A stretch of 59,726 nt of DNA, counting the filler, from Sluysia triapertura (Eukaryota), in assembly GCA_046118255.1 (NCBI GenBank). It is 5 parts of 5 records of this genome, joined end to end, with 100 filler letters (N's around TTAATTAATTAA, not from the genome) between each part and the next. Parts side by side here need not be neighbours in the genome. Positions count along the whole stretch, not along the records: positions 48,809 to 59,726 come from JBJNIA010191529.1; 4 more parts are not named here. One strand, 5' to 3'. The translations under genes were made by a program, and so were the position numbers. Position 1 is the stretch's first letter. Each line of letters begins with the position of its first letter. Shown piece by piece: positions 20,620-59,726 of this stretch. A model generated the notes under the pieces. The model saw only the letters and a program-made list of their open reading frames with translations, was not told the DNA's origin and searched no databases.

Positions 20620-20674
20620 CTATAAAAACAATTATAATATAAATAATAATATAAATATAAGCAACACAACTAAC

Positions 20675-25057: not shown

Positions 25058-25164
25058 AAAGAAAAACCAGAAAAATAGTTTAAAAAATTAAAATTGTAAA
25101 TTTCAAGTAGTAAAAAAAGAGGGTCACTGAAAAATTATCTCTCAAATTTATTGATAACTCAAAA

Positions 25165-26714: not shown

Positions 26715-26835
26715 GAATTATGGAAGAATACTTGAGTGACATAGAGAGTAGTGATCGTAGTGATACTAGCAGTGACAATGATGAAGAAACAGTGATGAGT
26801 AGTTTTACTTGGCGAAATATGAACAATTTTTAACG
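26715..26835 (+). other. Acidic N-terminal peptide, possibly a piggyBac-like transposase remnant
   Basis: MEEYLSDIESSDRSDTSSDNDEE...FTW; a similar acidic peptide lies at 53770-53845; no catalytic domain seen. Confidence 0.25.
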
Positions 26836-27599
26836 TTTTTTGCGTCCTGCGAGTGCTATATTGCAAAATGTAGTTGTACTGAAGGGGTTGATTTAGTGAA
26901 TCATTCGGTTCTGTTCATCGAAATTAAACTTAGCAAAGGATAAATTTATGTTACGCCAATTTTTTGCAACCTTAGTTAAATATGTACCGAACAACATTTT
27001 AATTTTTATTGTTATTTGTTAAATTGTACATAGAAAACCTTAAATTTAAATGGTGAATAATGTATCAAGCTAATTATCTGCTTGGTTAGGAATGGCGCTA
27101 TTATTTCAGACGTCATCAATATTAATTCAACTAGAATTTTAATAAGTAAAATAAATAATTTTAATAATGTACACTTTATGACATAGTTATGAAAAATGGT
27201 TTATATATAAATGATCGAATTTATAATTATTCTCTGAAGGTTAGTTCTGAATTTATTCCTGAGGGTAGAGAGAAAAGTGCTATTTTTTATAGTTAAAATA
27301 AGTTTGTTCTAAATTTATTTACTCATAAATGCATTAAACTAATAATACATGTTTGATTGTTGATGATAAAGGTTTATTTAATTTTAGAATTTATTTAAAA
27401 TTATTTAAATTAATTGTATTTAATTTTAATAATTTAAATAATTTATTAACAAATAAAAGACACTCTTGACCAAAAAACATAAATTTATTTAATAAAGATT
27501 GTTAAATTTTCAGTCTGGTTGACCTAAAAATTTTAATTTACTTCTAGTAATGAATTGTTTGTGCGGCAAAAAGATACCATAGGTTTAGTGGTTCTGATT

Positions 27600-28900
27600 T
27601 GAAATTTGTTGACCTTTGGAATGTCGTCTACTTCATTGTTTCTTAATGATGTGATAAGTCTGCTTATTCTATCATATGTTGATTGAAGTTGTCGTCTGTG
27701 GCTTTGCCGCGATCAATTTCTTCAATATTTAGATAATATCTGCATCATTTGCCAAACTTAACACATATTTCAAATTCGTTGATCTGAGTACATTGTGCCA
27801 AACGTTTGTGTTAAAAAAGTGCTGTATTCGAACTAATCATATCCTTATTTTTGTTGTTGAAATCGATGATTGGATTAAATTTATTCCGTTGCTTACTTTT
27901 ATATATCGTAGCTTGTTGCGCTTGGGAGTTTAGCATTCTTTTAAACATTTGACTTTACCGAACATTTTATATGACTGGTACATTACATCTTCGTCTATCA
28001 CTTTGTTATCCAGCATAATGTGATTAACATTACATATAACAATGTTTTGTACGTTGGACTTGAGATCTATATGATCTTGATTATTTAATGATTCAAATAA
28101 CTGTTCAACATATGGTAAATTTCTGTACAACACTTAGCTACTAATTATAGTAATCTAGAACGATTGCTGCGAGCGTTTTTTTCTAATTTTTTTGAATCGT
28201 CTAGACATGATTGTGGAACATACCAATCCAACATTGAATTAAAGACATTTAATTTACCCCAATCTAATTCTGAATAAATTAATTTTATCTTGCGATCTAT
28301 CAATGATATCAATAAGTACTACACAAATAGTCATAATAATTTCTCCATTGTACTTGGTATTTTTGTAAATGATCATTTACTACAAAAGCTGTCATATCAT
28401 GTTTAATAGTTCTATTAAGATCAGATGCATTCATATTGTAGGAATATTTTGAGGGTTCTGACTTATCATTAAAAGAAAATATTTTATTAGCCTATAAAAT
28501 AAAATTAATTTCGAAAACTCAACAATGTATTGTCGTTGATAAGGTATGCTTATCCATTCATATATTTTTCGATTACTATCACTATCTTTTAATTGATGTA
28601 ATGTTGGCAAGACTAAATATAAAATGAAATCATTTTGAGCTTGATTACGAGTACCCATCAAGTCTGTCCATAAAATAGACGATAATTTTAATCGATGTTC
28701 TAAGTCAAGTTTACGGTAACAAATTTTTGTAAACTTTTGAATAAAATTTAGTATTATGATTGAAAATGAATTATCATTGTAAAGGTTTATAAAATACTCT
28801 AATTTAGCATTATTCATTGATGATGACTTTAATCGATTACACATAAACATATCAGTCACAATAACTTTTTGTCTTTAAATTGGAAACTAATTTTTTATAA
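27600..28900 (-). pseudogene. Decayed intronless cargo ORF B, function unknown
   Basis: ORF pieces 28431-28859 and 27930-28133; the frame continues past the stop (TPKRNKLRYIKVS...FFNTNVWHN). Confidence 0.55.
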
Positions 28901-29042
28901 CTGTGTCCAATTACTCTTACTATTATCTTTTCTATTCTACTTGTTCAGTGACTGAGTTTTTCACTGTTTACTTGCTTTTGTAGTACCAAAATTTTAAAAC
29001 TAATTATTTTTTGATTTGAAGGATAATTTTTATAATTTTTGT

Positions 29043-29101
29043 TGATTGGTCATTCAATCAGAAAAGCAGTACAAAAATGAGATTGATTGGATGTCCAATC
29101 A
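29043..29101 (-). promoter_or_regulatory. CCAAT palindrome of copy B
   Basis: tgattggtcattcaatca ... tgattggatgtccaatca; 18-bp arms with 2 mismatches. Confidence 0.65.
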
Positions 29102-29789
29102 CTATTATGATAGGTATGTGTGTATATTAACCATACTGAATTAGCCAACCACAAACATCTAATGAATCAGCAATTGAAAAATTGTGGCAAGCAATTGAAT
29201 TTTTGTGAGAAATCATCTGTCGTAATTGACAGAAATTAAATTAAAATTTTTGCTGTTTACATGTTAATAGTTATATAATAATAATGAAAATAATAAAAAT
29301 GGAGATAATAATGATGAAATGAAAATAATAATAATATCATTAATATAATTATATTAAATACATAGATCTCGTTTTATCTTTTCTTTTTCTTGACATATAA
29401 ATAAATAAAATTAATTTAAATAAGGTTTTATTTGGTTAAGTTGTTAAAAATGATTAGAAGTATGCGTTTAATGTTTTTTAAAAGTGTTGATGTTTGAGTG
29501 TTTAAGAATTGTGAGCTTGAAATGTTTTGGATTGATTTTGAAATATATATTTGGTAGTTTGAAATGTGAATAGTAATTTTAGTGTTGTAGAATTGTGAGC
29601 TAAAAATATTTTAAATGAATTTGAACTGTCCATTGATGATTTTGAATGTAAGTATGATTTTAATGTTATAAAGTTGTGAATTTAAATGTTTTGAAATGTA
29701 AAAAGGTTTTAATAGATCTGAGAAAGTAGGATGTAGATTGTATCTTTTTGTAATTTTAATAGGTTTTGTTTTGAAAATGAAGCCATAAT

Positions 29790-37112: not shown

Positions 37113-38750
37113 TTATAGTCAATTACACTGTTGGGAAAATGATTGATTAAATCTTACAGAATAAAAGTACATAGGTAAGTCACCAACATATCTAGACCGT
37201 TGGATTTCTAAGAAATTAATATTTTGCGATTAATGATTTTAAATTTAAATTAATTAACGACACAACAATAATAAAGATAATTTAACTAGTTTCACAATGA
37301 AACTGTGATATGCATGAAGATAGTAAGTTAAGAATAACGAATTTTTTATTTTATTTTAGTTAATATTTTGTATGTCTAATATGCAAAAAAAGAACGCAAA
37401 AGTTTAGGCTTAGCAAGTTTAATTAAGATAAATAATACAAATGGAGTATTTTAACTAAGATTGCTAACAAGTTTTGAGGAAAAAGATTTACTTAACTAGA
37501 TGGATGATGGTGCCAACATTGCACATATAGGATTATTAGTAGAAGGAAAATATTAGTAGATACAGATTTGATAAAGATTTAATAATGATAGAAATCGAAT
37601 AAACAATTTGTATGGAGTGACAATTAGCGACAAACAAAGAGTTAATTAAAAAATTTCATCATTCAAATATTACAAGGCAAAAATAAACAAAAAAGGAAAA
37701 GCAGTCAGACCACAATCTTTAAATATTTAAAATCATTGAAATGATTTCGAAATAAAATTATTATTATATTAAGAACAGAGAGGTTTAATGAATTAATAAT
37801 TACTGTGAATAAAGTCGCTGAGTGTTTCTTAGAAAAAGCTTATGGAGGCGCATCTACAAGAATAGTGAGCAACTAGTAACGTAAAAAGTAAATCAAAACT
37901 ACCATTAATCTTTACAGTGCGCCTATGCAATAGCTAATTTGAGGGTCTAATGTAAGTATTTAATTTTCAAAGATCTTTGATTAAATCTTATTAAAATGAA
38001 TCTATTTACGTTTATTTACTAAAAAAGATATTTTTCAAATAATATAACACTAAACAAAATATCAACTGGCCTAAATAATTATAAGAACAAAATTGTTATT
38101 ATCAAAATCAAATTTTATCAATTAAATATAAAAATATAATACCTATAAAAATGTTAGGAACAAATTTTTTGAGGTTTTATTCACCATTATTAATCAAATA
38201 TTTTAATTATGATTTTGTGGCTATCTTAAAGCCAGTCTTAAAAAATCAAATGAGTTTAGGTAATATTTTATGGATCTGTTTGGATTGCTCAACTGTGGAT
38301 CTGGAGACGAATGAAAACATATAAAATCATAAAATGAAGGAGAAACTGATACAAATTGATGGATTGAACATTATAAACATTGTTGAAATAAGAATCATGA
38401 AAAATAAAACATTTATAATAATATTAACAGCTAAAGAATATCTTAAGGTTCCAAAGACCTATATAAGGGTTTGAGATCTTATGGAAACTTGAGATGCATT
38501 AAAAATAACCTTAAAGGTACCTTTGAACATTAGAACCTTTAGATCATTTAAGAACTTAGTAACTTTTAAGTATCTTGGTATATCAATGAGCATTTGAGAT
38601 CCTGTAGTAATCTTATAAAATGTTTAAAATCTTTGAAATAGTTGAGAAATAAAATCATTGTTATTGGAATTAAGAATAAATCTAATATAATAATAATTAA
38701 TATGAAGAAGTAGAAAAGGGAATCAGAGAGGCGAAAGTGAAAACATCTAG

Positions 38751-41723
38751 TGTGATGGCCGGTGTATATTGATAATTGATTTTAAATTAATCATCAACAA
38801 ATTAATATTAAGAAATTTAATATCATTATTGAACTTTATTTTACAAACTAAGAATTTCAAATTACTAAAGAAATAATAATGGAAACACATATATTTAGTT
38901 TGAGTAATAACTTTATAAAAGTACCACAAATCAAATAATTTTGCTACAGCAAAGTATTTAGCGTCGCCACACATTTCATACAATTCGTTCAAATCATTGA
39001 AAAGAATATTAAAAAAATGTTTATATAACATTCTCATTTCTTTAAAACCACCAATGTTATTTATTTCATTACATCTGCTGACTACCATATCCCACAGCTC
39101 GGGTGTTATCTTCTTAAACTCACCACATGCGACATTTTGACTATCCGTAATAACCGCTTGATAGCTTGACGAGATCAACGGTGATTTAGCTGCAAGTGAT
39201 TTGAAAAACGAACTGATAACAGTAAAAGGTTGGCACGTATTTGAAATCATAGGATATTCAGTATTATGATCGTCTTCTATACCATGTTGCAAAAGATTTT
39301 TATAATTACTAAAATCAGAAATGAAAATTCTTCCTTGAAATATATTTCTTTAAACACAAAAGCAACAATAATGCCATTACACATTGATCTGTGAAATTAT
39401 CCAATGCATCTTGGATAAACGTAAGTTTTTTTAAATGTAATATATTCGTTTTTAAATTTGTTTTAAACTGTTACACCACCAACTAATAAATTGTAACAAT
39501 TGAGTACCCTTAATTTAGGGTGGTTATCGATTAAATCATAAAACCAACGTAACCTATGAAAAAATAGTTTTGTAAAGTCACAAATTTCACATTATGTAAT
39601 CTATTTAACAGTTCTTTTTGTATCTGTCGTTTAGACATTTTTAATATGTCTATGTGACGTTCCAAGGCATCTGCTACGTTAAAAGTGTGCAATACAACAG
39701 ATCTACCATCATGATCAACACTATTAGCTAATCTAACTGCAATATCAAGACAACGACGAGACATAAGCACTACCTGATCGAAGTTATGATATTTGTCGTA
39801 TAACATTAAGCAAACTTCATCACAACTTCTAGTTGGATCCATAAACCTGGCGAACTGCCTCGCGCATTCTAATTCACCTTTTCTCTCACTTGAACTACAT
39901 CTACATAATGGTCTCATAACAATCTCTTTAAAATCTAATAATAATATTTGACTAACAATCTCTTTAAAATTTTGAATCTCCCAAGGTATATCCTTCATGT
40001 GCAATGATAAATCACTCATTTCTGATACTAATCTAGTTACTTTAAAAGGCCTTCTTGTATACAATCTTCGACAAACATTGACCACATAAATCTTCTGTAC
40101 AGTAACCTCATGACCTTCTGTTAATTCCTCGACTTTGAGTCACATCTTTATGACGTGCTTGATCGATACTTAAAAGTTTATCATGAGTAGATACACTTTT
40201 GACCAGTACTCTAGACATTTTTGAACAATTTTGAATACTTTTGTATTCTAACTTTATCTTTTTAAAATTCTGATAACTTTTATATTAACCTTTCATAAAA
40301 TATAGTTTTCTGAATCCTACCTAGATTATTCATTAAAAATTCAAAAATCTTTTTTAAAATGCACTCTTTGTTCTTTGAATTCTTATTCCAACTTGCATCA
40401 ACTAACAATTTTTCAAATTTGACCTTCAAGGTTACTTATATATGACAAATTTTTGTTTATAAGATCACAGTGTTTATACAAAAGCTTTTCAATAAAATTA
40501 TTTTTCAATAAATAAATCATTTTAAACTCAAACTTGAGTCAAACATGTTATTTCACTTAAATTTATTTTAGTTCATATATATACATGTAAATAAAAACAA
40601 AATCTTTCTTTTATTCGACAATAGAATAATCAATAGCATTTTGAATATGCATAATTTATTTCATGTTACCGCAATTTTCATATTATTTTATCCAAAATAT
40701 GGAGCAGTAAAATATTTTAGAACCTCGAAAAGTATTTTCAAATGCAAAAATAAGACTGTTTGTAAATTTGTCTAATTTAAATTTTTAAAATTGCTGCATC
40801 ACCAAAATGGTAAACTTGAACTTTTAAACATTTAACGCCTATTATTATTGACTAATGTAAAGTGATCAACACAATAAACAAGATAAACGAAATCATGAAA
40901 CCAATTTTTAATCAGTAATTTTTAAAATTATTTAATATAAGAAATTGAATGATGAATTCAAGATTGTGTCAAAGTTTCACGTAACATCGTGTCTTGATAT
41001 AATTCCGGTTGAATTATTTAACGATAATTTGATGAAATTTCGGGATTGTTAGGAATACCGTTGATGGAATATCCCTTTTTAATATTTATTTTTACTGCTA
41101 CTGGTTAATGAGCTCGGTCCAACTGAAGAACGATAAACAATGTACTTGCTGATATAGTAGATTGTCCTGGGATTTACACCAATCCATAAACCAAACAAAT
41201 TATTGATATATAATGATTCATCTGAAACAGAAGATCCAAATCGATGATATATTTGCGTGAATTATTTATTTTCACTTTGTTTGATGTTCATTGCTACTAA
41301 CCACGAATATATCATAACGTAGGCCTTGTGGAGATTGTGAACCTTGTATGGTCACGGTCATGAATAGACTTGAAAAAAGAAAAAAACTACAAATGAATTG
41401 TTTTTACAAAAATTCGAAATATCTTTATTCATCTTCAAATAATAAAAAGAAGAATGCAAAAATTGACACTATGATGGTGTAGTTGGGTAGAGCGATATTG
41501 ACGGATTGAAATATGGTTATTGGATCACTTACTGTAATTTTAATTGAATTACGTTGTATTTTAGGTAAAGTGTGTTAATATAATATATTTAAAATTGGTA
41601 ATATGTTTGAAATATATTATATTTTATGTGTTATTATGAGTATAAGATGTGGCGGAGGTGTCATGTGTGTTGGATGTTTGCGATTGCGTGTGTTAGGGGT
41701 TGGTGAATGAGTTGAACACTACA
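38751..41723 (-). mobile_element. Cargo cassette copy E (divergent subfamily)
   Basis: 3' end reads ggccatcaca on - (38760-38751). The 3' module YYFFSNLKFLV resembles YLFFSNEDFIV of copy A. Candidate 5' end tgtagtgttcaac at 41723 with a C/A arm. No CCAAT hairpin or TSD seen, so the 5' link is tentative. Confidence 0.5.
38850..40218 (-). pseudogene. Frameshifted intronless cargo ORF E, function unknown
   Basis: ATG at 40218 (MSRVLVKS..), frameshift near 40135 into ORF 39531-40085, further break before ORF 38747-39292; composition is clearly more coding-like than the flanks. Confidence 0.65.
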
Positions 41724-42653: not shown

Positions 42654-43628
42654 TGTGGTGGACAACCTTTATAACTATTAAATTTTATTAAAAAAATTAA
42701 TTTAATTTTTCAACACTTCAACATTCAAATATCTATCTCCTATACACTCACATAATACTTCATCCACCAAAACTAAGTCACATTCACAATCTCATAATAT
42801 ACAAATCTCATTTACACCTAATGTCATCAAATTACATAACAGATCCATTAAAACATGTAACTCTACATTTATAACAATCAAACCTTAACTACTTTTAAAA
42901 TTACCCACTCGACATCTTCGAATCAACAGCAACCTTTCAGATTCATCATTTATTATTGCACAATCACTAACAACACAAAAATAACAACACTCAAAACAGC
43001 AATAAAACAAATCATAATACCAACATGGTACATCAACCTTTCAAATATACTAAGAGTTGTACTATAATTTATCTTTTTACACTTATTAAACCACACTTTT
43101 CTGAATAAATCTTATGGTTACAATCTTCTAACATTCAAATATTACTCTCAATCAAGAACTTGTCCATTTCACTATATGGCATAAAAACTGCTATCGCACC
43201 TTGAAATGTTAAGTACATATGCTAAATTTACTTAGATTAATCTGTACGTGAAGATTTTAACTTTAAACATATTTAAATGCAGTACAATATGTCCAGAAAT
43301 CCTTAGGAGTTAAAGAAAGATTGTTTACAGTTTTTAAGGAGTCCAAAAGTTTATGCAATGTAATAACAACAATAACTTTAACATCGCTATTGCTATTGCA
43401 TTCAGTGCAAAATGTTCAAGAGAAAGAAGGAAAGATTTTGTGGATTCAGAAGAAACGAAGAAATGTATGCGTATATAATAACAATAATTATAATAATAAT
43501 ATCTATAACAAAATAATAATAATAACAATACTAATATCAATAATAATAACAATAATAATGATAATCAAAATAATAATCTAAATGAATAAATTAATAAAAA
43601 TCGTAGTTTAAGCCAACTTTGTTACTTC

Positions 43629-43797
43629 CATCATCATCGGCGACATTTCATTTAACAGTTAAAATTATATGTCAGCGATGACGATGACGGCCATCATGGT
43701 TGACTAAATTATCATCAAGTAATTGCTATATTGATTGTCCAACTAAAATCGTGTATGTATAGACATCATTTACACGATTTGGTTGGATAACCAATCA
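43629..43797 (+). promoter_or_regulatory. Twin-hairpin module of copy C
   Basis: catcatcatcg-gc-gacat / atgtc-ag-cgatgacgatg; tgattgtccaactaaaatcgtgta / tacacgatttggttggataaccaatca. Confidence 0.65.
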
Positions 43798-43957
43798 TTA
43801 ATGTAATTAAAAAAAGAATTTATGTTACAAATTTTAATCATAATTACAAAAAAAGCTCAAAAGTAAATCTTCATTTTGCAATTTTTTGTCGAACCAACAA
43901 AACGAATATTGTTATAAATTTCAACAAAAATTTTGAAAAATTTACAGTTGACAAGAG

Positions 43958-45190
43958 ATGGATGAAAATTCACAGTTCTGTTTCTCACTAAATCCAGAAA
44001 AAAAATCATATTTTCAAATCAATCAAAGAATGAATTTATAAAGTTTTTGCGAGAGAGATATAATCTTATGTGTCGAACTATTGATTTCTATATGAAGTAT
44101 TCTTTAGTATTAACTGAGAACAACAAATTATCTGGTTTAAAAATTGTGCATGTACACAATTCAGGTTGCACATTTCCAAAATTAGAATGGATAAAGAGAT
44201 TGTCACAAGTTAATAGTTTTAAATCATCGGATCTAATTCGCACATGCCATGATAGTTTGTTTTTAATCAAGGAACAAGTTCAGTTATTAACATGCAACTC
44301 GGTAACGAGGTATATTATATATTTCGACAATCGTTTAATTATAAAGACTATATTCAAAAAGGAGAAGAGAAATATTATAGTAAATCAAGTTAATATGGCA
44401 TATGAATTCATTATTTTCTTAATCTATTTTTTAAAAGACCACAATCGTAACAAAGGCAATATCACCGTGGCATTCAACATTTTAATGACCGTTCTTAATA
44501 AAGAAAACATGAAATATACAGTTCAAGATGATATTTTACTAAATGCTACACATCTGTTCATATTCAGTAATTGTTTAGTTTTTTTACATGTTAAAGACTA
44601 AATATGTAATAAATGTTTATAGCTTTCTCACCTATCACATTAATTTTCATAACAACATTATGATTACTGATCTTATGATTACCACAAGTAATCTATGTCT
44701 CATGAGTATTCTAAGAACATCGGGTTTGTCAATACTTTTAAATCATAATAGAAGTACCGTTTTTGAAAAGTTTAAAGATCATAAATTTGCTCAAAGTGTT
44801 CCAGATATTATTGATAATTTTAAAGATGTTTTTATGAGTATTAGTGGACGCGTGAGTAACATAACAATTCATGAATTTTATATTATTGTCACTGAGTTTA
44901 TGTTAGAATTACCCATGTTCGATACTACAGATCTTCTCGCCATGTTTGAAAGATGCTTATTTCAAAATAATAACAAACTTAGTTCTAGAGAAGTCAGTTG
45001 CGCATGCTGCTTGACTTCCCAAAATTCAAATACAAATGTGTGGAATTCGGAAATTTCATGGTATAATAACAGTGTAAATTTTTCTTTTGTAAACTCATTA
45101 TACAATTTTAATTTTAATTATTATTTAGACGATAATATAAAGGCAAGGCCAATGACGTTACACGAGGATGCAGCAATAAATTTTAAATAA
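43958..45190 (+). pseudogene. Frameshifted intronless cargo ORF C, function unknown
   Basis: ATG at 43958, frameshift into ORF 44047-44601, overlapping ORF 44588-45190; no introns apparent. Confidence 0.6.
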
Positions 45191-46459
45191 ATTGTTACGT
45201 TTAAAGATAAAGAAATTTTTACAGTTTAATTTGTTTATTTCATAGACTTTAGTGAATTCTTGATTTTAAACTTGCATAAAGATACTAAATTTAACAGTAA
45301 TAAAAAAATTAGATCAAATGATATGAATAGAGATTATAATTATTTTTATTCCCAAGTTAAAAAACTTATCATTAAAAGAAATTGTCTTCATATAGGTCTA
45401 GCGTCTCAAGACTTAATCATATTATTTCGCTCCAAATTAAAACCTATAATTTATGAAATGAATCAATTAGATTGTTCCCAGTTAAACCTAATATATCAAA
45501 ACATTTTGTTAACATCTCCAAATTGGCATCAGCTAAATTTAATATGTCCAATTCCAACCTCAGTAAACTTTAACACTTTGATTTGTGCATTGATTGTTGT
45601 GATATGATGAACAATTGATGTATTAATATTGTTAGTTATTGATATTTTGCATTGGTAGTGATTTTTTGGTTTCGGATTTTTCAAAAAAAATGTAAGTGAT
45701 TTTAATCATTTAATTTTAATTATTTAATTATTTAACTATAAGTAATTTATTAAACCATTTTAATTTTATAATCAAACTAGAGTAAAATGTTAATAACTAT
45801 TTTAATTATTTTGTTTTAATACATTAAAACTATATAAATAAACATTTTCACAATATTTGCATAACATTTTGATAACATTTTGTAAAATTTTTTGCAACAG
45901 ACTTCGAAATTCTGGCTACGACTCCAGTAGTTTTTTAATATTCTTTAATCATTGTGAATCTACATTTTACGTTAGTTTAATTATTATAAGGTTCGATACC
46001 CTAGAGTATCATTAGTAAAATATACTTAAATTTATTTAATTCATTTGGATCGTATAGTGGATCATTAGCAAAATATATTTTTAAATTATTTTATTGAGTT
46101 AACTAATTAAGTTAGTTCTGTAATTTATTATTATTATTGACAATTCTTATAAATTTTTAATCTTTTGTATAAGTTTTATAATAAAGTTTTTCTTTTTAAT
46201 TCCTTAGTCAATTAAAATAGTTTTAAAATTTGTTAACACTTAAAATTCCCTTGCTTTCGAGAAGCTAGAATTTAAATCTAGCAAATAAAATTTGTTATAA
46301 CGATTCCATAAAACGGAATCTACGTAAAATTACTAAATAAATTTTAATTCTATTTATAATCAAAGTTTTTCTAGATACTACAATACTACAAACTTTCAAT
46401 TATATTTACATCCTAAATTTGATAATTATCAGAGAATCTTAACAATAGGCATTAATAAA

Positions 46460-46600: not shown

Positions 46601-48404
46601 TCACATTTACTTCACTTTTCTCACAATTATTTATCTATTATTATTTGTCATTTTATTTACTTTATTTGCATCAATTCCATTGTTCATTTAACATTATAGG
46701 AAACGCCGTGTTTCGAATACGGTCGTAAACTAGACTCAAAATTTATTATTAAAGAAAATGTGTTAAAAATTAAGATACCGTTTTTATAATATGGTAATAA
46801 TATATCACTTAAAATAACTTGTTTTGATTAAACTATTTAAAAAAAATATCATTTGATAAAAGGAATAGACCTTAGAAAATCATTTTGTGTAATACAATCT
46901 TTTACGCAATTTATTAATACTAATAATAAGAAAATTATCGACTCTATTTTACGTCCAATTTTTACTTCTGATAATTACTACTTACAACTTAGCCTTTAAG
47001 TATGTAAGACTAAGATTAAGAAAATCATAAATTAAGACATAAATTAAGAAAATCAAAACACAAATCAAACCGAATTCTTGCATTTTGTACATAAGATTTC
47101 CTATATACAAAAAAAACGAATAAGATAATTAATATTTATATAATGTCTTTATATCGTCACTATGTTACTATAAATCGTAAGTTAATATAAGTTCAAATAA
47201 AATTATAAACATCAAAGTAAAAAATTTATGATCAAGTTATTTCAGAATCATTTTAATCACATTGACATATGGCTAATTATCAGATATTGAAAAATTTAAA
47301 ACATAAAACGATAATCTTATTCTAATTTATTGGAATTATTGTTTGGCATTTATATATAATATAAATATTCATTTATTTAAATGAAATTTATTTTATCATT
47401 TCAATCCAGAACTAAAATGAATTAATTGCATTAAATTTTTCAAAAACATTTTAAACATTATTCGAATTACAAAATCAAATAATTACTATTTCAATTTAAG
47501 ATAAAGTAGATAAAACAAAACTATTTAGTAATTAAGCACAATTTATGGATTTTTTAAAAGTAATATGATATATGATATGTTCTTGAAATTAACAACAGTA
47601 AATATTTATGAATTTTATGTATTTAAAATATTGTATTAAAAATGCTCAAACTAGTCATTATATTAGAAATTATTTATAGTGTTTTAATGTGTTCCAAAAT
47701 AATTATACTATTGATAATTATTAACAATGAAAAAGATGAATACAAAATTTATTAATTATAATTCGAACGACGAATAAAATAAATTGTTTTTATTTGTTTG
47801 TTTTTCACAAATTTGACAAACAATATTAGTTTTATTGTCATTTTATGATGGACAAAATTAATACCTTGTCCATTTTTTGTACAAATTTTAATACTTGATT
47901 GCACCATCTCGTGATCTAATTAACTATTTCTGCTACTTGTTTATTTTATCAGAACAAATAACCTTAACAGATTTTATTTCCATCCTAGATTATTAAACAC
48001 CATAAAACATAAGTATTGCTGTGGTTTAAAATAATTAACAATTTAAAATAATTTAAATAATTAATAATTTTCTTAAACGAGTGAGACTGACATTTATCTT
48101 TTATCTTTAATCATGTTTAATTTATTCAACAGATGACCTTATTAAGAAGGTTCAATTACTCTGATCTTTAAATAAAATTAATTATCTTTCACCTTTTCGG
48201 TACCCAATCTACTATAATCCAATAAAAATTATATCAATAACACGAACTTTTATTTTTTTTCAAGAATCGAACTAAAATTTGCAATTGAAGCTGCTCTAGC
48301 TTCTACTTTATGCAACTCAATTTTGTAAATAAGATTTAACCATCAGTAACATATAAATCAGATTGTATAAGGATATTTTATATAAAGTTGAAATATCCTT
48401 AACA

Positions 48405-48492
48405 TGAAATAACTGACCAATTATTTTGAAATAACTGACCAATTATTTTGAAATAACTAATTAACCAATTAACATGAAATAACTGACCAATT
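48405..48492. repeat. 22-bp tandem repeat (tgaaataactgaccaattattt), about 4 imperfect units
   Basis: Directly visible; preceded by inverted pair aaggatattt/aaatatcctt at 48369-48400. Confidence 0.85.
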
Positions 48493-48808: not shown

Positions 48809-49213
48809 AAAATACTTCAACCTTTCATTAAGTACTTCAAACCATTCTATCTAATGTATAAATCTTGTTTTCAAATTATAAATCTTCAATAAGTTTTAAT
48901 AAATTATTCTAACACTCTTTATTTCATTTACAACCTAAACCACAATATCTTTCAAAAACAAGTTTAAGATAACTTTAAAAACTTCATTATCATACTGCGA
49001 AGCAACAACCACAAATGATACATTATACACTTAGTTACGGTTGTCCCTTCACAGTATAACATTCGTTTCTTTCCTTTTATTTCATTTGTGTAAATAGAAA
49101 GAGAAGAATATAAAGAAAAAGTTCGTGTTTAAGATTTTCAAAGATTTATGCGGTTTTAAATTTTTATAATAATAATAATAACAATAATTTTACCATTTTT
49201 ATTATTATTAATA

Positions 49214-49256
<43 letters not shown>

Positions 49257-49311
49257 CATTACTGTTAATTAACAATTAAAAATAAAATTGTTTGACGGTT
49301 AAACTGTTACT

Positions 49312-49476
49312 GCCATCACCAGTGTTGACAGTCTATGTCACATTTACATTAGGCTGTCAGCCCTGATGATGGTCAGTCATCAGTATTTACATATTACAAA
49401 TTGTATCATTGATTAACACACACACCACCCAATCAGACTATTTTTATCTTACTTACTAGTAATCTGATTGGGTGGA
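49312..49476 (+). promoter_or_regulatory. Twin-hairpin module of copy D
   Basis: ccatcaccag-tg-ttgacagtcta / taggctgtcag-cc-ctgatgatgg (two G-T pairs); ccacccaatcaga / tctgattgggtgg perfect 13 bp. Confidence 0.65.
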
Positions 49477-49630: not shown

Positions 49631-51204
49631 ATGGAGCATTTACTACGATATTTCAATTTTAAAGGTGTAGAACTTATGAAAAAGAAATTAGTTAGACAAT
49701 GTCGTGAAAACTAATGTTAATCAACTTTACCAATACGTTTTTTGCAGGTTATTCAAGAATATCCTGATTCTAATTTGAAATGGAATCAATTCTTAAATGG
49801 TAAACCTATTTGTAATACTTGTATGAATAAAATAAAATCATCCTTCAATTATGATATACAGTGCCAAGAAATAATGAATTGGAAAAAGGAATGGATTACG
49901 AAGACACGTGATAACAGTTTGATTAATGATTTCAATTCTAATAAATTGTTTTCTGATTGATATCGATGTGTTCGGTGCAATAAATGGTGACAAGTTAGTC
50001 TGTCAGTGGAAATAATGCCTACAGAATTAGATAACTTCTCATGTAGTTTTATAATAAAACATACCAAAGAATTCAGTATATAAAGTCAAATCTAGAAAGA
50101 TTTTTGTTTTCCTTAGTTTATGAATTGCCGTTAGAATCTTCAATTAATTTAGAATGTTTCAATAATTCAGCTTTAAATATTGTTGGAATAAACCCAACTG
50201 TAACTGTACTAGATTTTTCTCTACCTGTAAATTGTAAAGAAGTTCTTCGAAATTTTCATGCTTTCAAGCAGGTGTCACACATTAATTGTGTTGTAGAAGC
50301 TATTAATCCCGTGGTTATGGATGATTGTGAAATAAGCATGTTTCTAGGATTTAAAGCTAATCAGAAATACTTACGTCTTAGTTTTCGAAATCTTATGTTA
50401 TTTTTATGGGTATCCGATGCTAAGATTCTAAAGTCTAGCCCAGATAGCGGCCTAAAAACAAATGAAAAGTTCGAGTTGAATGTAGATGTTCTAAGAAAAT
50501 ACATTATCGTCGACAGAAAATACATAAATCTTTTTTGTAAATTAGAGCATGTTAATTTAGTTAAAACATTTATTAAAAAGACCGGTCTATTTAATAAAGA
50601 TGTATTGCCAAAGGGCAGATTAAGGATTATAAAATTACAAAAATATAATTACGATGAAATTCAAGAGAGTTTAAGAGGTTCAATGTTCATCAGCGAAAAG
50701 GTAAGAAAACTTAGTAATTATGAAAACAATAAAGAAAAACCAGCTATGTTTGGTAGTCATTACGATGGTCGATTATCCTATACAAACTATGATTGTCAAT
50801 GCAAATTATTTCCGATTAATCCTGTTACGTTAGATGATTTTCGTGACTTTATGTTATCAAGTAAGAAGATAATTCTAATTATAAAATTTGCCGACTTATT
50901 CTACATTATGTTTTACTTTGTTAGTTTTAAGTTTACATTTTTATATGATCATCATTTAGATAACAAGCAATCTTACAGGATCCCGAAAATGCAACAAGAA
51001 GAGCGATGGGCAACAGATACTAGAAATTTAGAATCAAAATTCATTATTAGAACAATTTTTAATTTAAAAATTATAATTAACTTTTTTAGTTGTGAAATAA
51101 AATTTTATAATAGTTATCGTTTGTTTATAACTTATTATTTTAATACCAATCTATTAAAATCACGTCGAAATGCTATGCTTAGTTTTGAAATAAACTTTAT
51201 ATAA
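49631..51204 (+). pseudogene. Disrupted zf-CW plus divergent Macro-like domain cargo
   Basis: *YRCVRCNKW*QVSLSVEIMPTELDNFSCS fits zf-CW (W.QC..C.KWR...F/WYC) with W and R codons changed to TGA; frameshift near 50047; LPLESSINL...HINC aligns with LPLESVVNL...HCNC of cargo A. Confidence 0.6.
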
Positions 51205-51561
51205 CGGCAAAGAAAAAATTAAGTAAAGCTATAAGATGCTAAAAAACAAAAGGTTGAGATACTTAATGGAAATTATAAGAATATATTATCTTAACTCCAA
51301 TTCTACCTGCAACCATAGTTGTTCGTAATAAGCACGAACCAAACTTTAAAACATCTACCTTCCTAACAAGTTCATCGCTTAAACATATTTGTTATACAAT
51401 GAGTTTAATTGTGGAACTTTATAACAATATTTATAAGCCCTCAAAGAGAGCCAAAGTTTTAAAACTACATGTTCAAATCATTAATTTACTTCAAAAATTA
51501 TTCTTAAAGCATTATTTTATGTCATATATAACAACCCCATCCACTATAATTTTGATTTTCA

Positions 51562-51562
<1 letters not shown>

Positions 51563-51604
<42 letters not shown>
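51563..51604. repeat. (TTA)n microsatellite
   Basis: Directly visible; explains the poly-Leu in ORF 51399-51809. Confidence 0.9.
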
Positions 51605-51606
<2 letters not shown>

Positions 51607-52801
51607 ATTATTTATTTATAAAAATATTAATATTAATGGCCAAACTTTTAATAAATTATTTTCCAACTTTGTTGTGCTTAGATATCATTGAAAACATAGA
51701 TAATTGTAGATTTATTGTAGAAATAGATGATGACAGTCAATATTATTTCTCATCAAAAGATCTAGAATATAATAATTCAACGATATTTTTGATTTTTTTT
51801 GAATGTTGAAATTTGCATTAAAGATATAATTAAAGATAAAATGGAACTAAAATTAAAAGAAATTAAAAATTTTGTTTGTTTATTTATTATATGTTTTAAT
51901 AATTCATTAAATACCTTGCTTAGAGTTCGGTTTTTGAAAGTGTAAAAGTTTATTTAATAATAAAAAACACAATAACAATTCATAAATTCTGATTATGCCA
52001 ATAATAGTACCAAATATTGTTACAATAATAATACTAATAATAATACAAATATTTGTAATAATGATAATAATAATAATAAAATAATTATTTTTCAATAAAA
52101 CATTGACAAAGCAAAATATTATATTATATTATAATTCCTTTTCTGTTTTCTGTTTACTGTTTTAATAATATTTATTCTTAATATTTTATTTTATCCTTAA
52201 TATTTAAGGACGATGTGTTTATTCTTATTCATTCTATCAATTGCTACAATAATATTTCTGATAAATTAATGTAAATAAATAAATATCAAAAGAAGAACAT
52301 AAGTCAAAATTAATTAAGATTGCACTTAGTTCAAAATTATACAACACTAAAACCTGAATATTATAGTATATTTTATATTATTAAAAATAAACAGTAAAGT
52401 TTAGCTTAGCTTTTGGAAGCACATTAAAAACTAAGTATAATATTAATATAATTCAATTATTAACCTCGAAAATTATTTTAAAGAAAATTTATCAAAGTAA
52501 ACGCAATTAAAATTTGAAATTATTACATATTTTATTTTATTTATATTTCTTACAAAAATAAAAAAATTATAAAACAAATAAGTAATAATTTTTATTTTCA
52601 AATTCTATTAATGAATAATTGATTTTTCTTTAATAATTATTAAAACAGAAACTGTCAATTAATTATGTTTCAAGAAACAAATTATTCATTGTATAAAAAA
52701 GAATCAGTTCCAATTATTACTCACAAAAAGGGATTAATAATTGGACAACATTTTATTTATTTTATTGCCGTTTAAAACAAAACTTTCTTTGGACTTTTAA
52801 A

Positions 52802-52802
<1 letters not shown>

Positions 52803-52844
<42 letters not shown>

Positions 52845-52858
52845 GTAATAATAATAAT
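52803..52858. repeat. (AAT)n microsatellite
   Basis: Directly visible. Confidence 0.9.
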
Positions 52859-54112
52859 GTAAAATTTAAATAAACAAATCTAAATAAAACAAATTTGAAT
52901 TTATAGTCTAAACAAAATGTTTCATATTAACCCCAATCAATCTTGTTTGACATTTTCAATCTTTATTTCATTAGTAAAAATAAATAATAATATTTTATAC
53001 TTTTATAGCTAAATGTAAAGGTCAAGTCAATCTCTAATGGAGAAAAATGATGATACATAAATGATAAATATACATTTCATTGTTTTTGAAATATATTTTA
53101 TTAATATTAACATTAATAATATTAATTAATAAACTTTTAAAAATTAAACATTACTAAATTACAGTATTCATAGTGATGAAATATTAAAAAAAGTAACCAA
53201 TAGATTTTAAATAAGATAAATTTTGATAAATCAAAAACAATTATAAAATTAAATTTTATTTTAATTTAATATTAAAAATATTTAAATACAAAAAATTGCA
53301 TGCATGTGTAGATACAGTTTCAATTTTTTAATATTTCCTATTTTATATTACAAATACGTCATTGCACGTGCAGAAATTACATTTTATATTTTATGATTTA
53401 TATTTTCATTAATTTAAACACGTGCTGGTAGTTGTAGTTTACATTTAAATAATAATAATTATTATATTATACTATTATTATATTATTATTATTATTATAT
53501 ACCGCTACTTCTACAATATTTATGAAAGAATTACATTATATGTGCCTACCACATCGTAAGTGCTTTCGTTCATAGTAAACGTCTTCTCTTGCTTGTGTGT
53601 TATTTAATTTTTGTAGAAATTTGATTGCTTGTAACTTTTTAAATATTAAAATGAATTTACTTTTTATTTTAATAAATTTTTATAACTTAAATAATTTATT
53701 TGGCTCTAATTATTAAATATTATGTAATTAATCTTTTAGAGATTTTGTTTAAGATTTTGAGTATTTTCGTAATTTTGAATCAGAAAGTGATTCAGAAACA
53801 GATATTTATATGAATTCATCGGACGAAGAAGAAACTGGATCGTAGGAAATTTTAAGACACAAAATGCGATTTTCGACGAAAGCCAATATGGTATTGCTTA
53901 AAATGAAAAAAAATTATACATTCAGTACGAAATAAAAGTGATGGAAGAAAGTATAAGGCTAAATAGGAAACCATAGATACCATGATATTTATTTGCTGTA
54001 AATAACAGTTATGCTTATATCCCAAACAAAGGAAGCAAACTAAAGTATTATTGGTCCATTGAGTAAAGTTTCTTGACGGAGAAAATTAGAGTGTTTTTTA
54101 CTTCCGGAAAAA

Positions 54113-54932
54113 ATTGCTGTGGTTTTTATTAATATTTGAGTTTAAACCTAAGGCAAAATAGAAAATTGAGCAGGATCCGGTTACAGTAAGCGTCTTACTT
54201 CGTAAAGAAGGGATATCTGTAACAAAATAAGTTAAACTAAATAAAGAAATTAAATCTATACTCTTATAACTAGAGGGTCTAATAAATTCACAAACAACTA
54301 ACAGAACTATTTCTTAACGAATTAAAACTTTATACAACTTGAATTATAGTACAGAATAAAGATGAAAGAATAAAAGGAATTATGAAATTTATTATTAAAA
54401 CTTCTATGAGTCTTTAATAATTAATGAGTATCAGTTTAAACTAGATTTTACCCCTCAATATATCGGGAACCTTAAGACTAAATTAAACATAAGATGAATT
54501 TACGTAGATTTTATGATATTAGTTTTCTTAGGCAAAACAAATACCAGTCTTAATAAAAACAAATTACTTGTTTCATGGATTGAAAAATAGTTACGAGCAG
54601 ATGATTCGCGATGTTTCTTGAAAGTTTAATTCGCATAGAATGGATGGTAATTTAGATCCGTTTGATAAAAATGTAAACAATGATAATATTGCAGATGGCT
54701 ACTTTCACTACAACTAATATTATTACAAATAGCGATTTTCATTGTATTGATGCTAGTTTATATACTAGTCATCATCTTTTTTAGAAAAAATAATTGTTGG
54801 AAAATAATTGTTTTTTAATTAATTTTAAATGATTTTAGAATATTTTTTATGATTTTAAATAATTTTAAATAACTTTAAGGTGTCATTATGACATCTTAAA
54901 ATTATTTTGTATGGTTGTGATGGCAACCTAAT
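54113..54932 (+). repeat. Dispersed repeat R1, copy 3
   Basis: tgctgtggtttt..aacctaaggcaaaatagaaaattgagcaggatccggttacagtaag..; ends ggttgtgatggcaacc-taa. Confidence 0.8.
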
Positions 54933-56775
54933 ACTTTTAATAAATTCAATAATAAATATAACTACTATGAATTATCCAAAAGCTAATACGATGATTTCCC
55001 ACAGTTATTGGGTTGTATGTTGTGGTATTGGCCACATGAGTATTGATAATGTTAGAGTTTATTTTGTTTTATAATTATAGTTTTAAAAATGGGTTCGAAA
55101 TAGATATTTCCACGTTCAATTGTAAGGTTGGTTGAATTTGTAAAATTTGTTGAAACTTATGATGTTTTTACAAACTGTGATATAATTCTAATTATGTGAT
55201 AGAATCTTTTGTTTAAATGCTAAAATTTATATTGCTAGGTTTTTATTTATCTTTTTAGTTTGTTTAATTATAAAAGAATTATTTTTATGGGGGTTACCAA
55301 CATTAATTGCAAAATTTTTAGATGATTTGTATTTGTTTTACTATTTGATGTTAAAATATTATTTTTTTCTCTTTTTATGATTTACAATTGGTTTATATTT
55401 TTAATCTTATTTTAATGCGCTTAGTGTGCTTTAGTGTGTTTTATCTTATCTTATTGTCTGCGTAAAATTATAAGTGAACGAATATCATAAATTTTTTAAA
55501 TTAACGTGTTTATTTGTTTTGTATTTTATTTTATTTAAAAGTCATTAAAATGGGACAGTACTTTAGAAAACAATATTGAAAGATTGATTAAAGTTGTAAA
55601 ATTGTGTAGATCGATTATGAAAGTGTGAATTGTAATTTTAATAAAGTATAATATTTAAGAATGTAAATTAATCCCTTGTTCATTTTATGTATTTTGAGGT
55701 ATTAAGATGAGAAAATAGAATATTTATGAAAAATCTCCAGAATGGACTTAATTTCATTGTCAGAACATTTTGGTAACTAATTAAAGTTTTGGCGTAACTC
55801 GAATTCATGTTACTGTGCATACTGTGTACCATTTATTTGACATTTAAAAAGCTAGAATTCTGCCTATTGTGGGCAGTTATTTGGTCTACACCTAAAGCAA
55901 TAATTTTTAAAATTTTCCATTTAGTAGTGGCGGTCAATCTTATTATTATCTCAGTAAACAAATAAACAATCAAAGCACCATAAATCTAATATTTACAAAT
56001 TCATTTATGATCATATACAAGATAATATCAGTTGTTTTCAATAATTGTGCGCTTTTCTCGAATTTGTGAAAATTTAGTAAATTTATGGTTATAAAATAAA
56101 GTGCGAAACAATGAATTTAAAAAAATGCGTTCTATGAATTTTTGTTGAATCTTGAAATTAATAAACTTTCGTAAAAACACTAATACTTTTGTTATTTTAT
56201 AGCACCATAATTATTTTCGATTGTACAAAATAGACAGTTTACTATAAGTTTATGTTAAACAATTGCTAAAGCTAATTCAAAAATAAATGTTTTATTTCAA
56301 ATCTATTATAAATTAGACGTTTGTACTTAAAAATCTCTATTTCTTACATTAGTAAATAAATATTAAAAAATACGTTTTCGTGGTAATTCCAAAGATGGTG
56401 AATTATTGGTATACATTTAAAAACATTCTTTTGTAAAGTCAGAAAATTGAAAATCTTAATTTTTTTAAAAACAATGTATTATATAAAGTTGCTTAGTTAT
56501 TTTTTATCATACCGTATTTTCTAACTTCATGATTAGCCTGGCATTGTATCCGACTATGAATTTTTGTTTTATTTGAATTATATCTGAGAATTATACAGTT
56601 CATGTTATTACTTTAACTTTGTGAATATTTCTAGTTTTAATATTGTATATTTTTTGAATATTAGTATTTATATTGCCTGTTAGATAATTTTTTATATATA
56701 TCTTTATTATTTACTAAGAAAATGTTATTTGATGTCGGAGTTTGATCTTGTATTGTGATTATATATAATGTGTGA

Positions 56776-56827
<52 letters not shown>
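56776..56827. repeat. (TTA)n microsatellite
   Basis: Directly visible. Confidence 0.9.
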
Positions 56828-58105
56828 GTAAAATTTAAAAATGTTGGTTAATTAAAATAATTAAAAAGTAGTTCGTAAAAGTCGAATGTCTTTGAATACT
56901 TTATTATATCGATAGATTTATATATGCTTGTAATCAATGTAAGTTTCTTTATGAATTCTTGTAATAATATTCTAATCATTTTATCACTATATTCACCTTA
57001 TTCTAATTTTAATTATGATCTTTTATGTCTGTGAAATTTAGAATTCTTTAATGTAAAGTTTACAATATGTTAATATTCTTCAACGTTTTTGAATTTTTAA
57101 TTTATTCTTAATTTCGGCTAATAGTCTACATTTTTTAAATCATACTTCAATTATTGCTTGTCAGTAACAACTTAAATTCTTTTTCGTAATTATCTCACCT
57201 TTTATCGTATAAGTTTTTATTGTTTCACTTTACAAGAATATTTATACGTTAGAATTGTGAGATTTGATACTCGTTTCGATGACCTGAAGTGGAAACGCGA
57301 AAATAAGTTTTGCTTTTATTTTCTTTTTAGATTTTGTTTTGTTCAGTGAGAATATTTAGATGCACTTTGAATATTATTTTATTTACTTTCTCTGGGGGCT
57401 CTCTTTCAATAATTAGTTTAAAAAATTTATTAAATAAACACGCAATTATTCTAGAAACGAAATTATCAGTTAAATAAATATCAATAAAGTTAACCAATTT
57501 AGATTATTAATAATATAGCAATCTTCAGACTTAAAATAACAGAAGTTACTCACTAACAATTAATCCAAAGCAAGCTAATATCGTTTATTCAAGTTAAATT
57601 GTTCAGATAAATTCCAAGATTGTTATTGATCGTTTGAATATTGCTTGTCAAAGTTAGACTATTCAAATAAATTTGAAGAATGTTATTAATTTTTAGTTGT
57701 TAAATTCCATTATTCCTTTTTGTACACCAAAAACTAATTATCTATATAGATGAAAAAATTTTATGATTATCTAGCTGTTAGTAATTTATAATAATTTCTA
57801 TTTTTTTGAACTATTTATACTACTAGTCCTCTTGTATTTTATAATTTATTTTTATTCTATCAATATTGGTAAAACTAGTGGAAATTCAAATTTTATCAGT
57901 ATATAATACATTAGTATCTGGTAAATAACATAATAAATAATAATTTCGTGATAATATAATTATTTCATTAGTAATAAAATAATATAATAAATGTACAATA
58001 ATAATCAGTAGTAATAAATGAATAGTAATAATATATTAATATAATTAACACGGAATAATAATTTCGTCAGTCATAATAACTAGTATTTTCGACTGAAGTT
58101 GTTAT

Positions 58106-58348
58106 TGTAGTGTTCAACTCACTCACAAACCTTCAATAAACTCAACTACAAATATCCAATACACAGTACACCTTTGCCACACCTTGTACACATAACAACA
58201 CCTAAAATATAACACATCTTAATCATATTATACTAATATCTCTTAACTTAAATAGAGTATAACATACCTAAATTGCAATAATTTATCGAATAACGGTACT
58301 TCAATCCGCTGATATCGTCCCACTCAACTATACCAACATTGTGTGAAT
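58106..58348 (+). mobile_element. Solo 5' arm of the E-type subfamily
   Basis: tgtagtgttcaactcactcac...ttcaatccgctgatatcg...caactataccaacattgtgt aligns with the reverse complement of 41445-41723. Confidence 0.8.
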
Positions 58349-58789
58349 CACTTTTATCATTATTATTATTATCATTATTTGTAACATCATCATTATTATT
58401 ATTATTAAAGTTTTAATACTTAACTTAATCGTTTTCTATATTTTATTTTTGCATAGAACTAAAACTTTAATCATAAATTAATATCTTCGAGTCAAATAAA
58501 TTACAACATTTTAATTGTCAACATTTGAATTAAATAAAAATAAAGTTTATTTGTCTTGTACGATATTTCCTGTCTTTGTTTTTACATATTCTGTATCTTT
58601 ATAATTGTTCTTCGACACAGACTGTAACAAAATGAGTATTGTAATTAACAGACTTTAACGTAATAGAATAAATAGAAAATATTAAATTCATATTCTCCTT
58701 CTTATTATTAATATTAATAACAATAATTATTATTATTAGTGTTCTTATATTTACAAATACCTTTCTTTATTATTATTATTAATTATTAT

Positions 58790-59210
58790 CATTATTATTT
58801 ATATAACTGAAAGACATTTGTTTTAGTTTTCACATTTTGTAGTATTCCCAAGAGATATTCAGGACTTCCATAACGTCACAAATTGGAATTCTACTCTTGT
58901 TTTTATTAGTAATCACTGTAATTTTTAAGACAAGATATTACTTAAAAATTTACCTAAAATGTACCATTCTTATATTCTACATGATAAATGAATAAGTAGT
59001 TTTATACATTATTTTCTAATCGATATTTTTATCTTATCATATTCAAGGCTGTTTTAATTGTTTTAAGATACATGGAAGAGATTTTAACATACTTAGCATA
59101 CCATCGGTTAAGCGTACAAGTATCGCACTATGGAATCTACGCATTACTATTGTGAATTAACTTATGAGACAAACAATATCCGAATTCACTGAAATATTTT
59201 TTTATCTCTA
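58790..59210 (-). mobile_element. Decayed L2/CR1-like LINE 3' remnant
   Basis: Minus strand KLQ*LLIKTRVEFQ...YGSPEYL resembles LHWLPI..RI.FK...G..PEYL. Confidence 0.45.
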
Positions 59211-59438
59211 TTTCAACAATTATAATTGTATAGAATAACACAACTTTATTCAACAAATAACTTTAAATAATCAAATTCATTACATTTATTTAATTGTGCT
59301 AAATTATTTTACCTTGTATTGATTGTAAAACATTCAATGTATTTCATTTCTTTACTAAATCAAGAAGCAATTATGTAGTATAGTTTTTATTGAAATATGT
59401 ACTATTTTATTTACTGATAATGAGTTATTCGTAATGCT

Positions 59439-59440
<2 letters not shown>

Positions 59441-59488
<48 letters not shown>
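59441..59488. repeat. (TTA)n microsatellite
   Basis: Directly visible. Confidence 0.9.
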
Positions 59489-59726
59489 GTTAAGTATTGA
59501 ACTTTATACTTCGTGAACTTTAAACATTGTAATGTTTACTACTGCATTATTTATATTAGTCTATATTTATTTTCTGAAACTTTTTCGTCAATTATAACAT
59601 TTTGGATTTTTATAATTAATTATTTATTAGTTTCGTAAAAATTTTCGGAATTTTTATTTAATCAGTTAATAATTTTAAGTGGACTATTAAAAGTAAGAAT
59701 TTTCATATTTAAATATTTTATTTAAA

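What the first reader, a model, noticed from the sequence alone, without database searches (positions are those of the whole stretch)
49631..51204. Cargo D: zf-CW reader joined to a diverged paralogue of the cargo A domain
Seen: a CxxC segment, then a zf-CW-like motif broken by two TGA codons (49958, 49988) at the expected W and R positions, a frameshift near 50047, then a region that aligns with cargo A (LPLES..NL, N.V.I..T, H.NC, V...T.IK). Known: zf-CW domains bind methylated H3K4. Inference: domain shuffling inside the cassette family, with the same core domain carrying CCCH in A and CW in D. The divergence suggests long evolution under coding constraint before decay.
Basis: partly seen in the sequence, partly recalled or inferred. 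Interest (0 to 1): 0.72.

Follow-up and report, generated by a model that had tools for sequence, protein, structure and literature searches.

The report
Truncated, part-decayed LSD2 gene copy
This is a shortened, partly broken copy of the animal histone demethylase gene LSD2, without its enzyme half, lying behind a hairpin-rich upstream sequence that several other decayed genes nearby share; it is not a new histone-reading domain shuffled onto another protein.

Summary
The CW motif is real. Read with X at its stops, 49682-50047 matches the C4H2C2 finger plus CW finger of LSD2/KDM1B (E 1.9e-5; next protein 0.12), and the two TGAs fall on Trp and Arg as claimed. The 'frameshift' may be a 41-nt intron.

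CxxC and CW thus came in together as LSD2's own tandem, whose CW is reported not to bind H3. The 385-codon ORF that follows is intact and has a weak internal repeat. By recalled motifs it resembles LSD2's linker and SWIRM, but no tool confirmed this. No amine-oxidase domain follows.

A-D similarity is borderline: 16 of 56 identities on one diagonal (P about 0.01), with matrix scores not significant. The cassette family is real: four genes share upstream hairpins.

Best reading: a non-catalytic LSD2 fragment carried by a pack-type DNA element, whose fingers decayed first. An in-frame splice skipping all four stops is possible but untested.

The parts
49104..49475 (+). Upstream module shared by the cassette family (AAT/TTA microsatellite tract, hairpin 1, hairpin 2)
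   Evidence: blastn 72% over 185 nt to 24740-24918, largely microsatellite. The hairpin cores resemble those of C (0 of 500 shuffles reach the score), B (3 of 500) and A (34 of 500).
49309..49377 (+). Hairpin 1
   Evidence: z -4.8, 0 of 200 shuffles. Against A's hairpin: 12 of 19 pairs identical, 3 changed on both sides, 1 on one side, 2 broken, 1 unpaired in both.
49425..49475 (+). Hairpin 2 with inverted CCAAT boxes; likely promoter element (inference)
   Evidence: z -7.9, 0 of 200 shuffles. CCAA[T/C] and its complement occur in the hairpins of all four cassettes.
49631..49664 (+). ATG and first 34 nt; candidate exon 1, ending at a weak phase-1 donor
   Evidence: no transcript evidence
49682..49830 (+).
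   Evidence: phmmer to LSD2 chains E 1.9e-5 over query residues 18-139, repeated. Two His and several Cys are replaced. Rival: weak zf-AD hit, E 0.003, below the cut-off.
49955..50044 (+). Decayed CW finger, TGA at the Trp (49958) and Arg (49988) positions; three Cys aligned, fourth not identified
   Evidence: no Pfam zf-CW hit
50076..50116 (+). Candidate 41-nt intron that would account for the apparent frameshift
   Evidence: GT..AG in the right phase; the acceptor is among the 2 most pyrimidine-rich of 214 YAG sites on this contig. It is 1 of 4 frame-bridging GT-AG pairs. The T-rich tract could also come from Phe/Leu/Ser codons.
50047..51204 (+). Intact 385-codon ORF: putative LSD2 linker + SWIRM-like unit (about 50245-50640) + second diverged unit (about 50749-51201); no amine-oxidase domain
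   Evidence: The longest ORF in 100 shuffles of the contig is 123 codons. Internal repeat: 0.2-1.7% of shuffles reach the score. SWIRM identity is recalled only; not shown.
50125..50292 (+). 56-codon stretch on a gap-free diagonal with cargo A 25221-25388
   Evidence: 16 of 56 identities. 0 of 400 shuffles at that window length; 6 of 600 when the length is optimised. DNA identity after the first 9 codons is 41 of 141, which is background.

Best explanation
D is a 3'-truncated copy of an LSD2/KDM1B gene: C4H2C2 finger, CW finger, then (inferred) linker and SWIRM, with the SWIRM-like unit duplicated and the catalytic amine-oxidase half missing. It lies behind a hairpin/CCAAT module that also precedes cargos A, B and C, most simply because a non-autonomous DNA element (Pack-TIR-like) captured gene pieces and drove them from its own terminal promoter (inferred). 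While intact, the protein would have been a non-catalytic chromatin scaffold or decoy. It would use the linker/SWIRM surfaces by which LSD2 holds the H3 tail and its cofactor, not the CW cage (inferred from LSD2 structure papers). The two fingers decayed first (shown: all 4 stops lie there). Today the locus is either wholly dead (about 65%) or makes a finger-less product by splicing or internal initiation (about 35%).
For: LSD2 is the only significant match among 177,635 PDB sequences (4 entries, all one protein; E 1.9e-5 to 1.3e-4; next protein 0.12), and one alignment spans both fingers. The tandem C4H2C2 + CW arrangement is described as unique to LSD2 (PMC11118440 and PMC5453194, passages). 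The ORF starts right where that alignment ends and is far longer than chance. No amine-oxidase hit in the ORF or in + strand frames 51200-59701. Shared, structurally conserved upstream hairpins. A and B converge inside inverted repeats 24140-24257 / 29603-29724. All 4 stops fall in the first 148 of 509 codons, P 0.007.
Against: No tool identified the ORF as linker/SWIRM: Pfam, PDB phmmer/hmmsearch, protein collections and the atlas (only unnamed nematode clusters at 0.76-0.90) gave nothing. The resemblance rests on recalled motifs. No transposase, target-site duplication or closing inverted repeat was found for D. D's contig starts only about 800 nt upstream. The LSD2 match is 25 identities in about 120 positions, to the human protein only. 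No parent gene or transcript could be examined.
Confidence: 0.62

Rival explanations
1. One reading: the cassette family has its own core gene (the LPLES exon, shared by A and D), and in D an LSD2 finger fragment was inserted in front of it, possibly inside its first intron. A carries a CCCH instead.
For: The A-D diagonal is the best of 45 pairs of cargo pieces (16 identities, next 14); 6 of 600 shuffles reach it; pairwise phmmer P 0.002. Both LPLES stretches follow a phase-1 AG. The distance from hairpin 2 is 167 nt in A and 198 nt in D once 452 nt are removed. A's CCCH is real (PF25427, E 1.6e-6, below the cut-off).
Against: Matrix-scored alignments are not significant; hhalign probability 1.8%. 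DNA identity is at background after 9 codons. The 29-nt DNA match is equalled by 13 of 300 shuffles and 8 of 59 other windows. The start of A weakly fits a macro-domain profile instead (P 0.003 unjoined; 3e-4 joined with X; family picked by eye). The ORF's position right after CW and its recalled SWIRM motifs fit plain LSD2 order.
Confidence: 0.18
2. D is an ordinary decaying duplicate, or the lineage's own LSD2 on its way to loss. The shared upstream module is an independent small repeat or a promoter family, not a cargo-carrying element.
For: LSD2 evolves faster than LSD1 and has been lost in insects and in one annelid (PMC2579438, PMC12153100, passages). No transposase in 58 further ORF pieces. 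The ORF's second half is strongly AT-drifted (49% FYMINK residues).
Against: The same two-hairpin module lies directly upstream of four different decayed genes on three contigs, in matching orientation. Loss of the catalytic half with a duplicated unit and a long open frame is not simple decay.
Confidence: 0.13
3. The LSD2 match is limited to the fingers and the ORF is an unrelated lineage-specific gene that happens to lie downstream.
For: All database searches with the ORF were empty.
Against: The ORF begins at the end of the finger alignment on the same strand, with a frame-bridging intron candidate.
Confidence: 0.07

Closest known systems
LSD2/KDM1B (AOF1) histone demethylase; PDB 4GU1, 4FWE, 7XE1
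   Same: Tandem C4H2C2 + CW fingers in the same order and spacing; probably linker and SWIRM behind them (recalled).
   Different: No amine-oxidase domain, so no demethylase activity. The fingers carry four stops and lack several Cys/His. The SWIRM-like unit appears twice.
zf-CW H3K4me readers (Pfam zf-CW; e.g. the MORC CW domains in the listing)
   Same: W-x-x-C-x-x-C-x-K-W-R-type core, with the two TGAs at W and R.
   Different: No Pfam hit. It belongs to the LSD2 subtype, reported not to bind H3 because SWIRM residues fill the cage (PMC5453194, passages). The first cage Trp is a stop.
Pack-TIR / Pack-MULE elements (PMC8277862, abstract and outline; PMC3310237, listing with abstract start)
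   Same: Host gene pieces behind a repeated terminal module; A and B converge inside inverted repeats; TIR promoters are described for Mutator elements.
   Different: No transposase, target-site duplication or closing repeat shown for D. The cargo is far more diverged than the young Pack-TIRs of that paper's outline. The paired hairpins matched no Rfam family at gathering score.

Membership tests
LSD2/KDM1B | N-terminal C4H2C2 zinc finger | tested here: met
   Homologous by sequence, but broken by two stops and missing both His and several Cys (ligand assignment recalled).
LSD2/KDM1B | CW finger directly after it | tested here: met
   Same alignment, E 1.9e-5; three Cys aligned, fourth not identified.
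LSD2/KDM1B | Linker and SWIRM domain | tested here: inconclusive
   No hit in Pfam, PDB, protein collections or atlas. Models had pLDDT 30 and 39. The resemblance is recalled only.
LSD2/KDM1B | FAD-dependent amine-oxidase domain | tested here: not met
   No such Pfam hit in the ORF or in + strand frames 51200-59701. So D is derived from LSD2 but is not a functional member.
zf-CW methyl-lysine readers | Pfam zf-CW match | tested here: not met
   None at E<=1 or E<=10 with X at the stops. X and the tool's filters lower sensitivity.
zf-CW methyl-lysine readers | Intact two-Trp cage and four Zn-binding Cys | tested here: not met
   The first Trp is TGA 49958, the second is intact (49985); fourth Cys not identified.
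zf-CW methyl-lysine readers | Binding to methylated H3K4 | not testable with these tools
   LSD2's CW is reported not to bind (PMC5453194, passages).
Paralogue of cargo A core | Significant A-D protein alignment | tested here: inconclusive
   Identity diagonal 6 of 600 shuffles; matrix scores reached by 11-83% of shuffles.
Pack-TIR / Pack-MULE | Repeated terminal module flanking host gene pieces | tested here: inconclusive
   The module is upstream of 4 genes and inverted around A and B; no closing copy found after D.
Pack-TIR / Pack-MULE | Target-site duplication and a related autonomous transposase | tested here: inconclusive
   Ends too decayed to define; no transposase in the ORF pieces scanned; the rest of the genome was not available.
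Macro domain (for cargo A, and D as control) | Match to a macro-domain profile | tested here: inconclusive
   Profile of 55 prokaryotic proteins: A matches 19 residues at the profile's start only (6.4 bits joined with X, 3.3 unjoined); D scores -0.4.

The most novel reading that the evidence does not exclude
An animal mobile-element family with double-hairpin CCAAT promoters captured the non-catalytic half of LSD2, duplicated its SWIRM, and diversified it into several cargos (A with a CCCH finger). In D it turned the dead zinc fingers into an intron, so that a 373-residue double-SWIRM protein is still made and acts as a chromatin decoy or anti-silencing factor.
Probability: 0.12. Interest if true: 0.72.

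Novelty: new variant of a known kind. Interest (0 to 1): 0.38.

Why it matters
As a dead fragment it matters little: gene capture by DNA elements in animals is described (PMC8277862, abstract). It would matter if the ORF is expressed. A demethylase-less LSD2 derivative with two SWIRM units would be a natural test of LSD2's non-catalytic roles, and a mobile element carrying a chromatin-enzyme fragment would be a candidate animal anti-silencing factor. Two paper searches (listings only) showed no description of such a derivative. They cover only the open library. No supplements were read, and gene tables in them could list such paralogues.

Tried and rejected
Recoded TGA: rejected. One TGA sits at Trp and one at Arg, and two TAA stops also break the frame.

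Pfam zf-CW and SWIRM: no hit.

Homologue searches: all three word-based searches, the full phmmer scan of 1.84 billion representatives and exact look-up of three ATG-started forms returned nothing. These are weak negatives for so diverged a sequence.

PDB searches with the ORF, its parts, a profile of its two repeats and an A+D profile: nothing. The finger piece between the stops alone gave only GATA-3 at E 1.3.

Structure: single-sequence AlphaFold models had pLDDT 30 and 39. Fold searches on the second gave best E 0.82 and best Z 3.4, which is uninformative.

Atlas: only unnamed or F-box-associated nematode clusters, with a low recognition score.

An alignment of the two reading frames came out smeared and was not used.

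Macro-domain identity of A: weak and chosen by eye, not accepted. A's pieces had no useful PDB or plasmid hit.

Rfam: one match at E 0.77, far below gathering score.

A whole-region X-read Pfam scan was replaced by partial scans. These covered the 17 pieces, 58 ORF pieces (from a filtered list of 80) and X-read frames of 27900-29101 (-) and 51200-59701 (+), so short decayed transposase remnants could be missed.

The primary LSD2 structure paper (PMC3567814) is not held.

Full report
Setting. The window is five AT-rich contigs (about 25% GC) joined by N-flanked spacers. It is eukaryotic and probably animal: it holds exons of an RSE1/DDB1/CPSF1-family gene that I read as SF3B3 (Pfam hits; name from recall) and an interrupted coiled-coil gene. 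D lies near the start of the fifth contig (48809-59726).

Checking the observation. TGA 49958 and TGA 49988 are in frame with ATG 49631. An ORF of 385 codons follows in another frame (50047-51204). The longest ORF in 100 composition-preserving shuffles of the contig was 123 codons.

What the N-terminal part is. Reviews describe LSD2 as carrying a C4H2C2 finger followed by a CW finger, SWIRM and the amine-oxidase domain, with the finger pair unique to it (PMC5453194 and PMC11118440, passages). One alignment covers both fingers, so they arrived together. Only 25 of about 120 aligned positions are identical, but 11 of 16 Cys/Trp are kept against about 14 of 105 others (Fisher P about 1e-5; counts read by eye, test). 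That shows divergence under constraint, though the constraint may have acted on the parent gene. Both His of the first finger and several Cys are replaced. Three of the replacements are one base from the expected codon, which fits later decay.

The frame change. Three short introns of 44, 49 and 55 nt can be inferred in the two host genes (from sequence only). A 41-nt GT..AG interval at 50076-50116 bridges the two frames of D. Its acceptor is among the 2 most pyrimidine-rich of 214 YAG sites on the contig. It is one of four frame-bridging pairs, and the T-rich tract could simply be Phe/Leu/Ser codons, so a true frameshift is not excluded. The same acceptor is in phase with a weak donor at 49664, upstream of all four stops. 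That splice would give a stop-free 373-residue product without the fingers. There is no transcript evidence for either.

The ORF. It has a coding-like base pattern in its first 190 codons (GC 0.39/0.25/0.23 by codon position) that flattens at the end. All four stops fall in the first 148 of 509 codons (P 0.007), so the fingers decayed before, or instead of, the ORF. The ORF has a weak internal repeat (units about 50245-50640 and 50749-51201; 0.2-1.7% of shuffles reach the score under three settings; DNA-level test not significant). From recall of LSD2, the stretches VGINP, FHAFKQ, INPVVMD, RNLMLFLW, YIIV and KTGLFN of this ORF fit linker and SWIRM motifs in order and spacing. No call confirmed this: Pfam, PDB, protein collections, atlas and folds of unusable models all gave nothing. 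No amine-oxidase domain was found in the ORF or on the + strand to 59701.

0 of 400 shuffles reach that at this window length and 6 of 600 when the length is optimised. It is the best of 45 pairs of cargo pieces, and pairwise phmmer gives P 0.002. Both stretches follow a phase-1 AG. Against: ten matrix settings give 11-83% of shuffles reaching the score; hhalign probability is 1.8%; DNA identity after the first nine codons is at background (41 of 141); the 29-nt DNA match is equalled by 8 of 59 unrelated windows; and the fourth motif is off the diagonal. A's start also weakly fits a macro-domain profile built from 55 prokaryotic proteins, but I picked that family by eye and do not accept the match. 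I put A-D homology at about 50%. If it holds and the ORF is LSD2-derived, A is the shuffled member.

The cassette family. Four genes on three contigs are preceded by a related module: A (+, hairpins 24934-25054), B (-, about 29040-29105), C (+, 43621-43815) and D (+, 49309-49475). All seven hairpins tested fold better than shuffles (0 of 200 for six, 2 of 200 for one). Hairpin 1 of A and D shares 12 of 19 pairs and has 3 pairs changed on both sides (two sequences only). Hairpin 2 carries inverted CCAAT-like boxes. A and B converge inside inverted repeats. No transposase, target-site duplication or Rfam family was found. Because the modules are still alike as DNA while the cargos are not, the module probably spread after the cargos diverged or picked them up separately (inference).

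How it most likely works. Shown: LSD2-type fingers, dead; intact downstream ORF; no catalytic half nearby; shared upstream hairpins. Inferred: capture of the 5' half of an LSD2 gene by a pack-type element whose terminal module acts as promoter; a period as a non-catalytic chromatin scaffold or decoy using linker and SWIRM, which in LSD2 form a second H3 site and contact the cofactor NPAC (PMC5453194, passages); duplication of the SWIRM unit; loss of the fingers. Confidence 0.62. Rivals: an LSD2 finger fragment set in front of a cassette-specific core shared with A (0.18); an ordinary decaying duplicate or the lineage's own dying LSD2 (0.13; LSD2 evolves fast and has been lost in some lineages, PMC2579438 and PMC12153100, passages); an unrelated ORF (0.07).

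Verdict. D is LSD2-derived but fails the catalytic-domain test for membership, and it is not an H3K4me reader. Capture of host genes by TIR elements in animals is known (PMC8277862, abstract and outline), so this is a new variant of a known kind. Two searches (listings only) showed no report of such a derivative. Interest 0.38. The most novel reading, a living finger-less double-SWIRM cargo made by turning dead domains into an intron, has probability about 0.12 and would deserve about 0.72.

Noticed in passing
window 24934-25054, 29040-29105 (-), 43621-43815, 49309-49475: Two conserved hairpins precede each of four decayed genes; changes on both sides of three pairs suggest selection on the structure; no Rfam family.
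   Followed up: partly
window 24140-29724: Cargos A (+) and B (-) converge inside inverted repeats, as in elements with promoters in both ends.
   Followed up: partly
window 25165-26114: Cargo A: a candidate 29-nt intron after ATG 25165 would remove its first frameshift; weak macro-like start; UNK-like CCCH finger near 26010-26093 (Pfam E 1.6e-6).
   Followed up: partly
window 11014-13597 and 54143-57265; 41438-41723 and 58106-58376: Old, decayed inverted repeats of several kb shared between contigs (68-91% in patches); no Pfam hit in the frames scanned.
   Followed up: partly
window 1221-1590 (ORF 1233-1880, -): 216-nt-period internal duplication (83% identical) inside a 216-codon ORF without a family hit.
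   Followed up: no
window 38750-40139 (-) and 43966-45604 (+): Five ORFs of 125-211 codons with protein-like composition and no significant Pfam hit; the + strand ones are cargo C.
   Followed up: partly
window 3395-5758 (+) and 15651-21307 (-): Host genes: SF3B3-like exons and an interrupted coiled-coil gene; inferred introns of 44-55 nt beside longer ones of about 275 nt.
   Followed up: partly
window 48399-48492: Short tandem array of a 16-nt unit at the end of the fourth contig.
   Followed up: no
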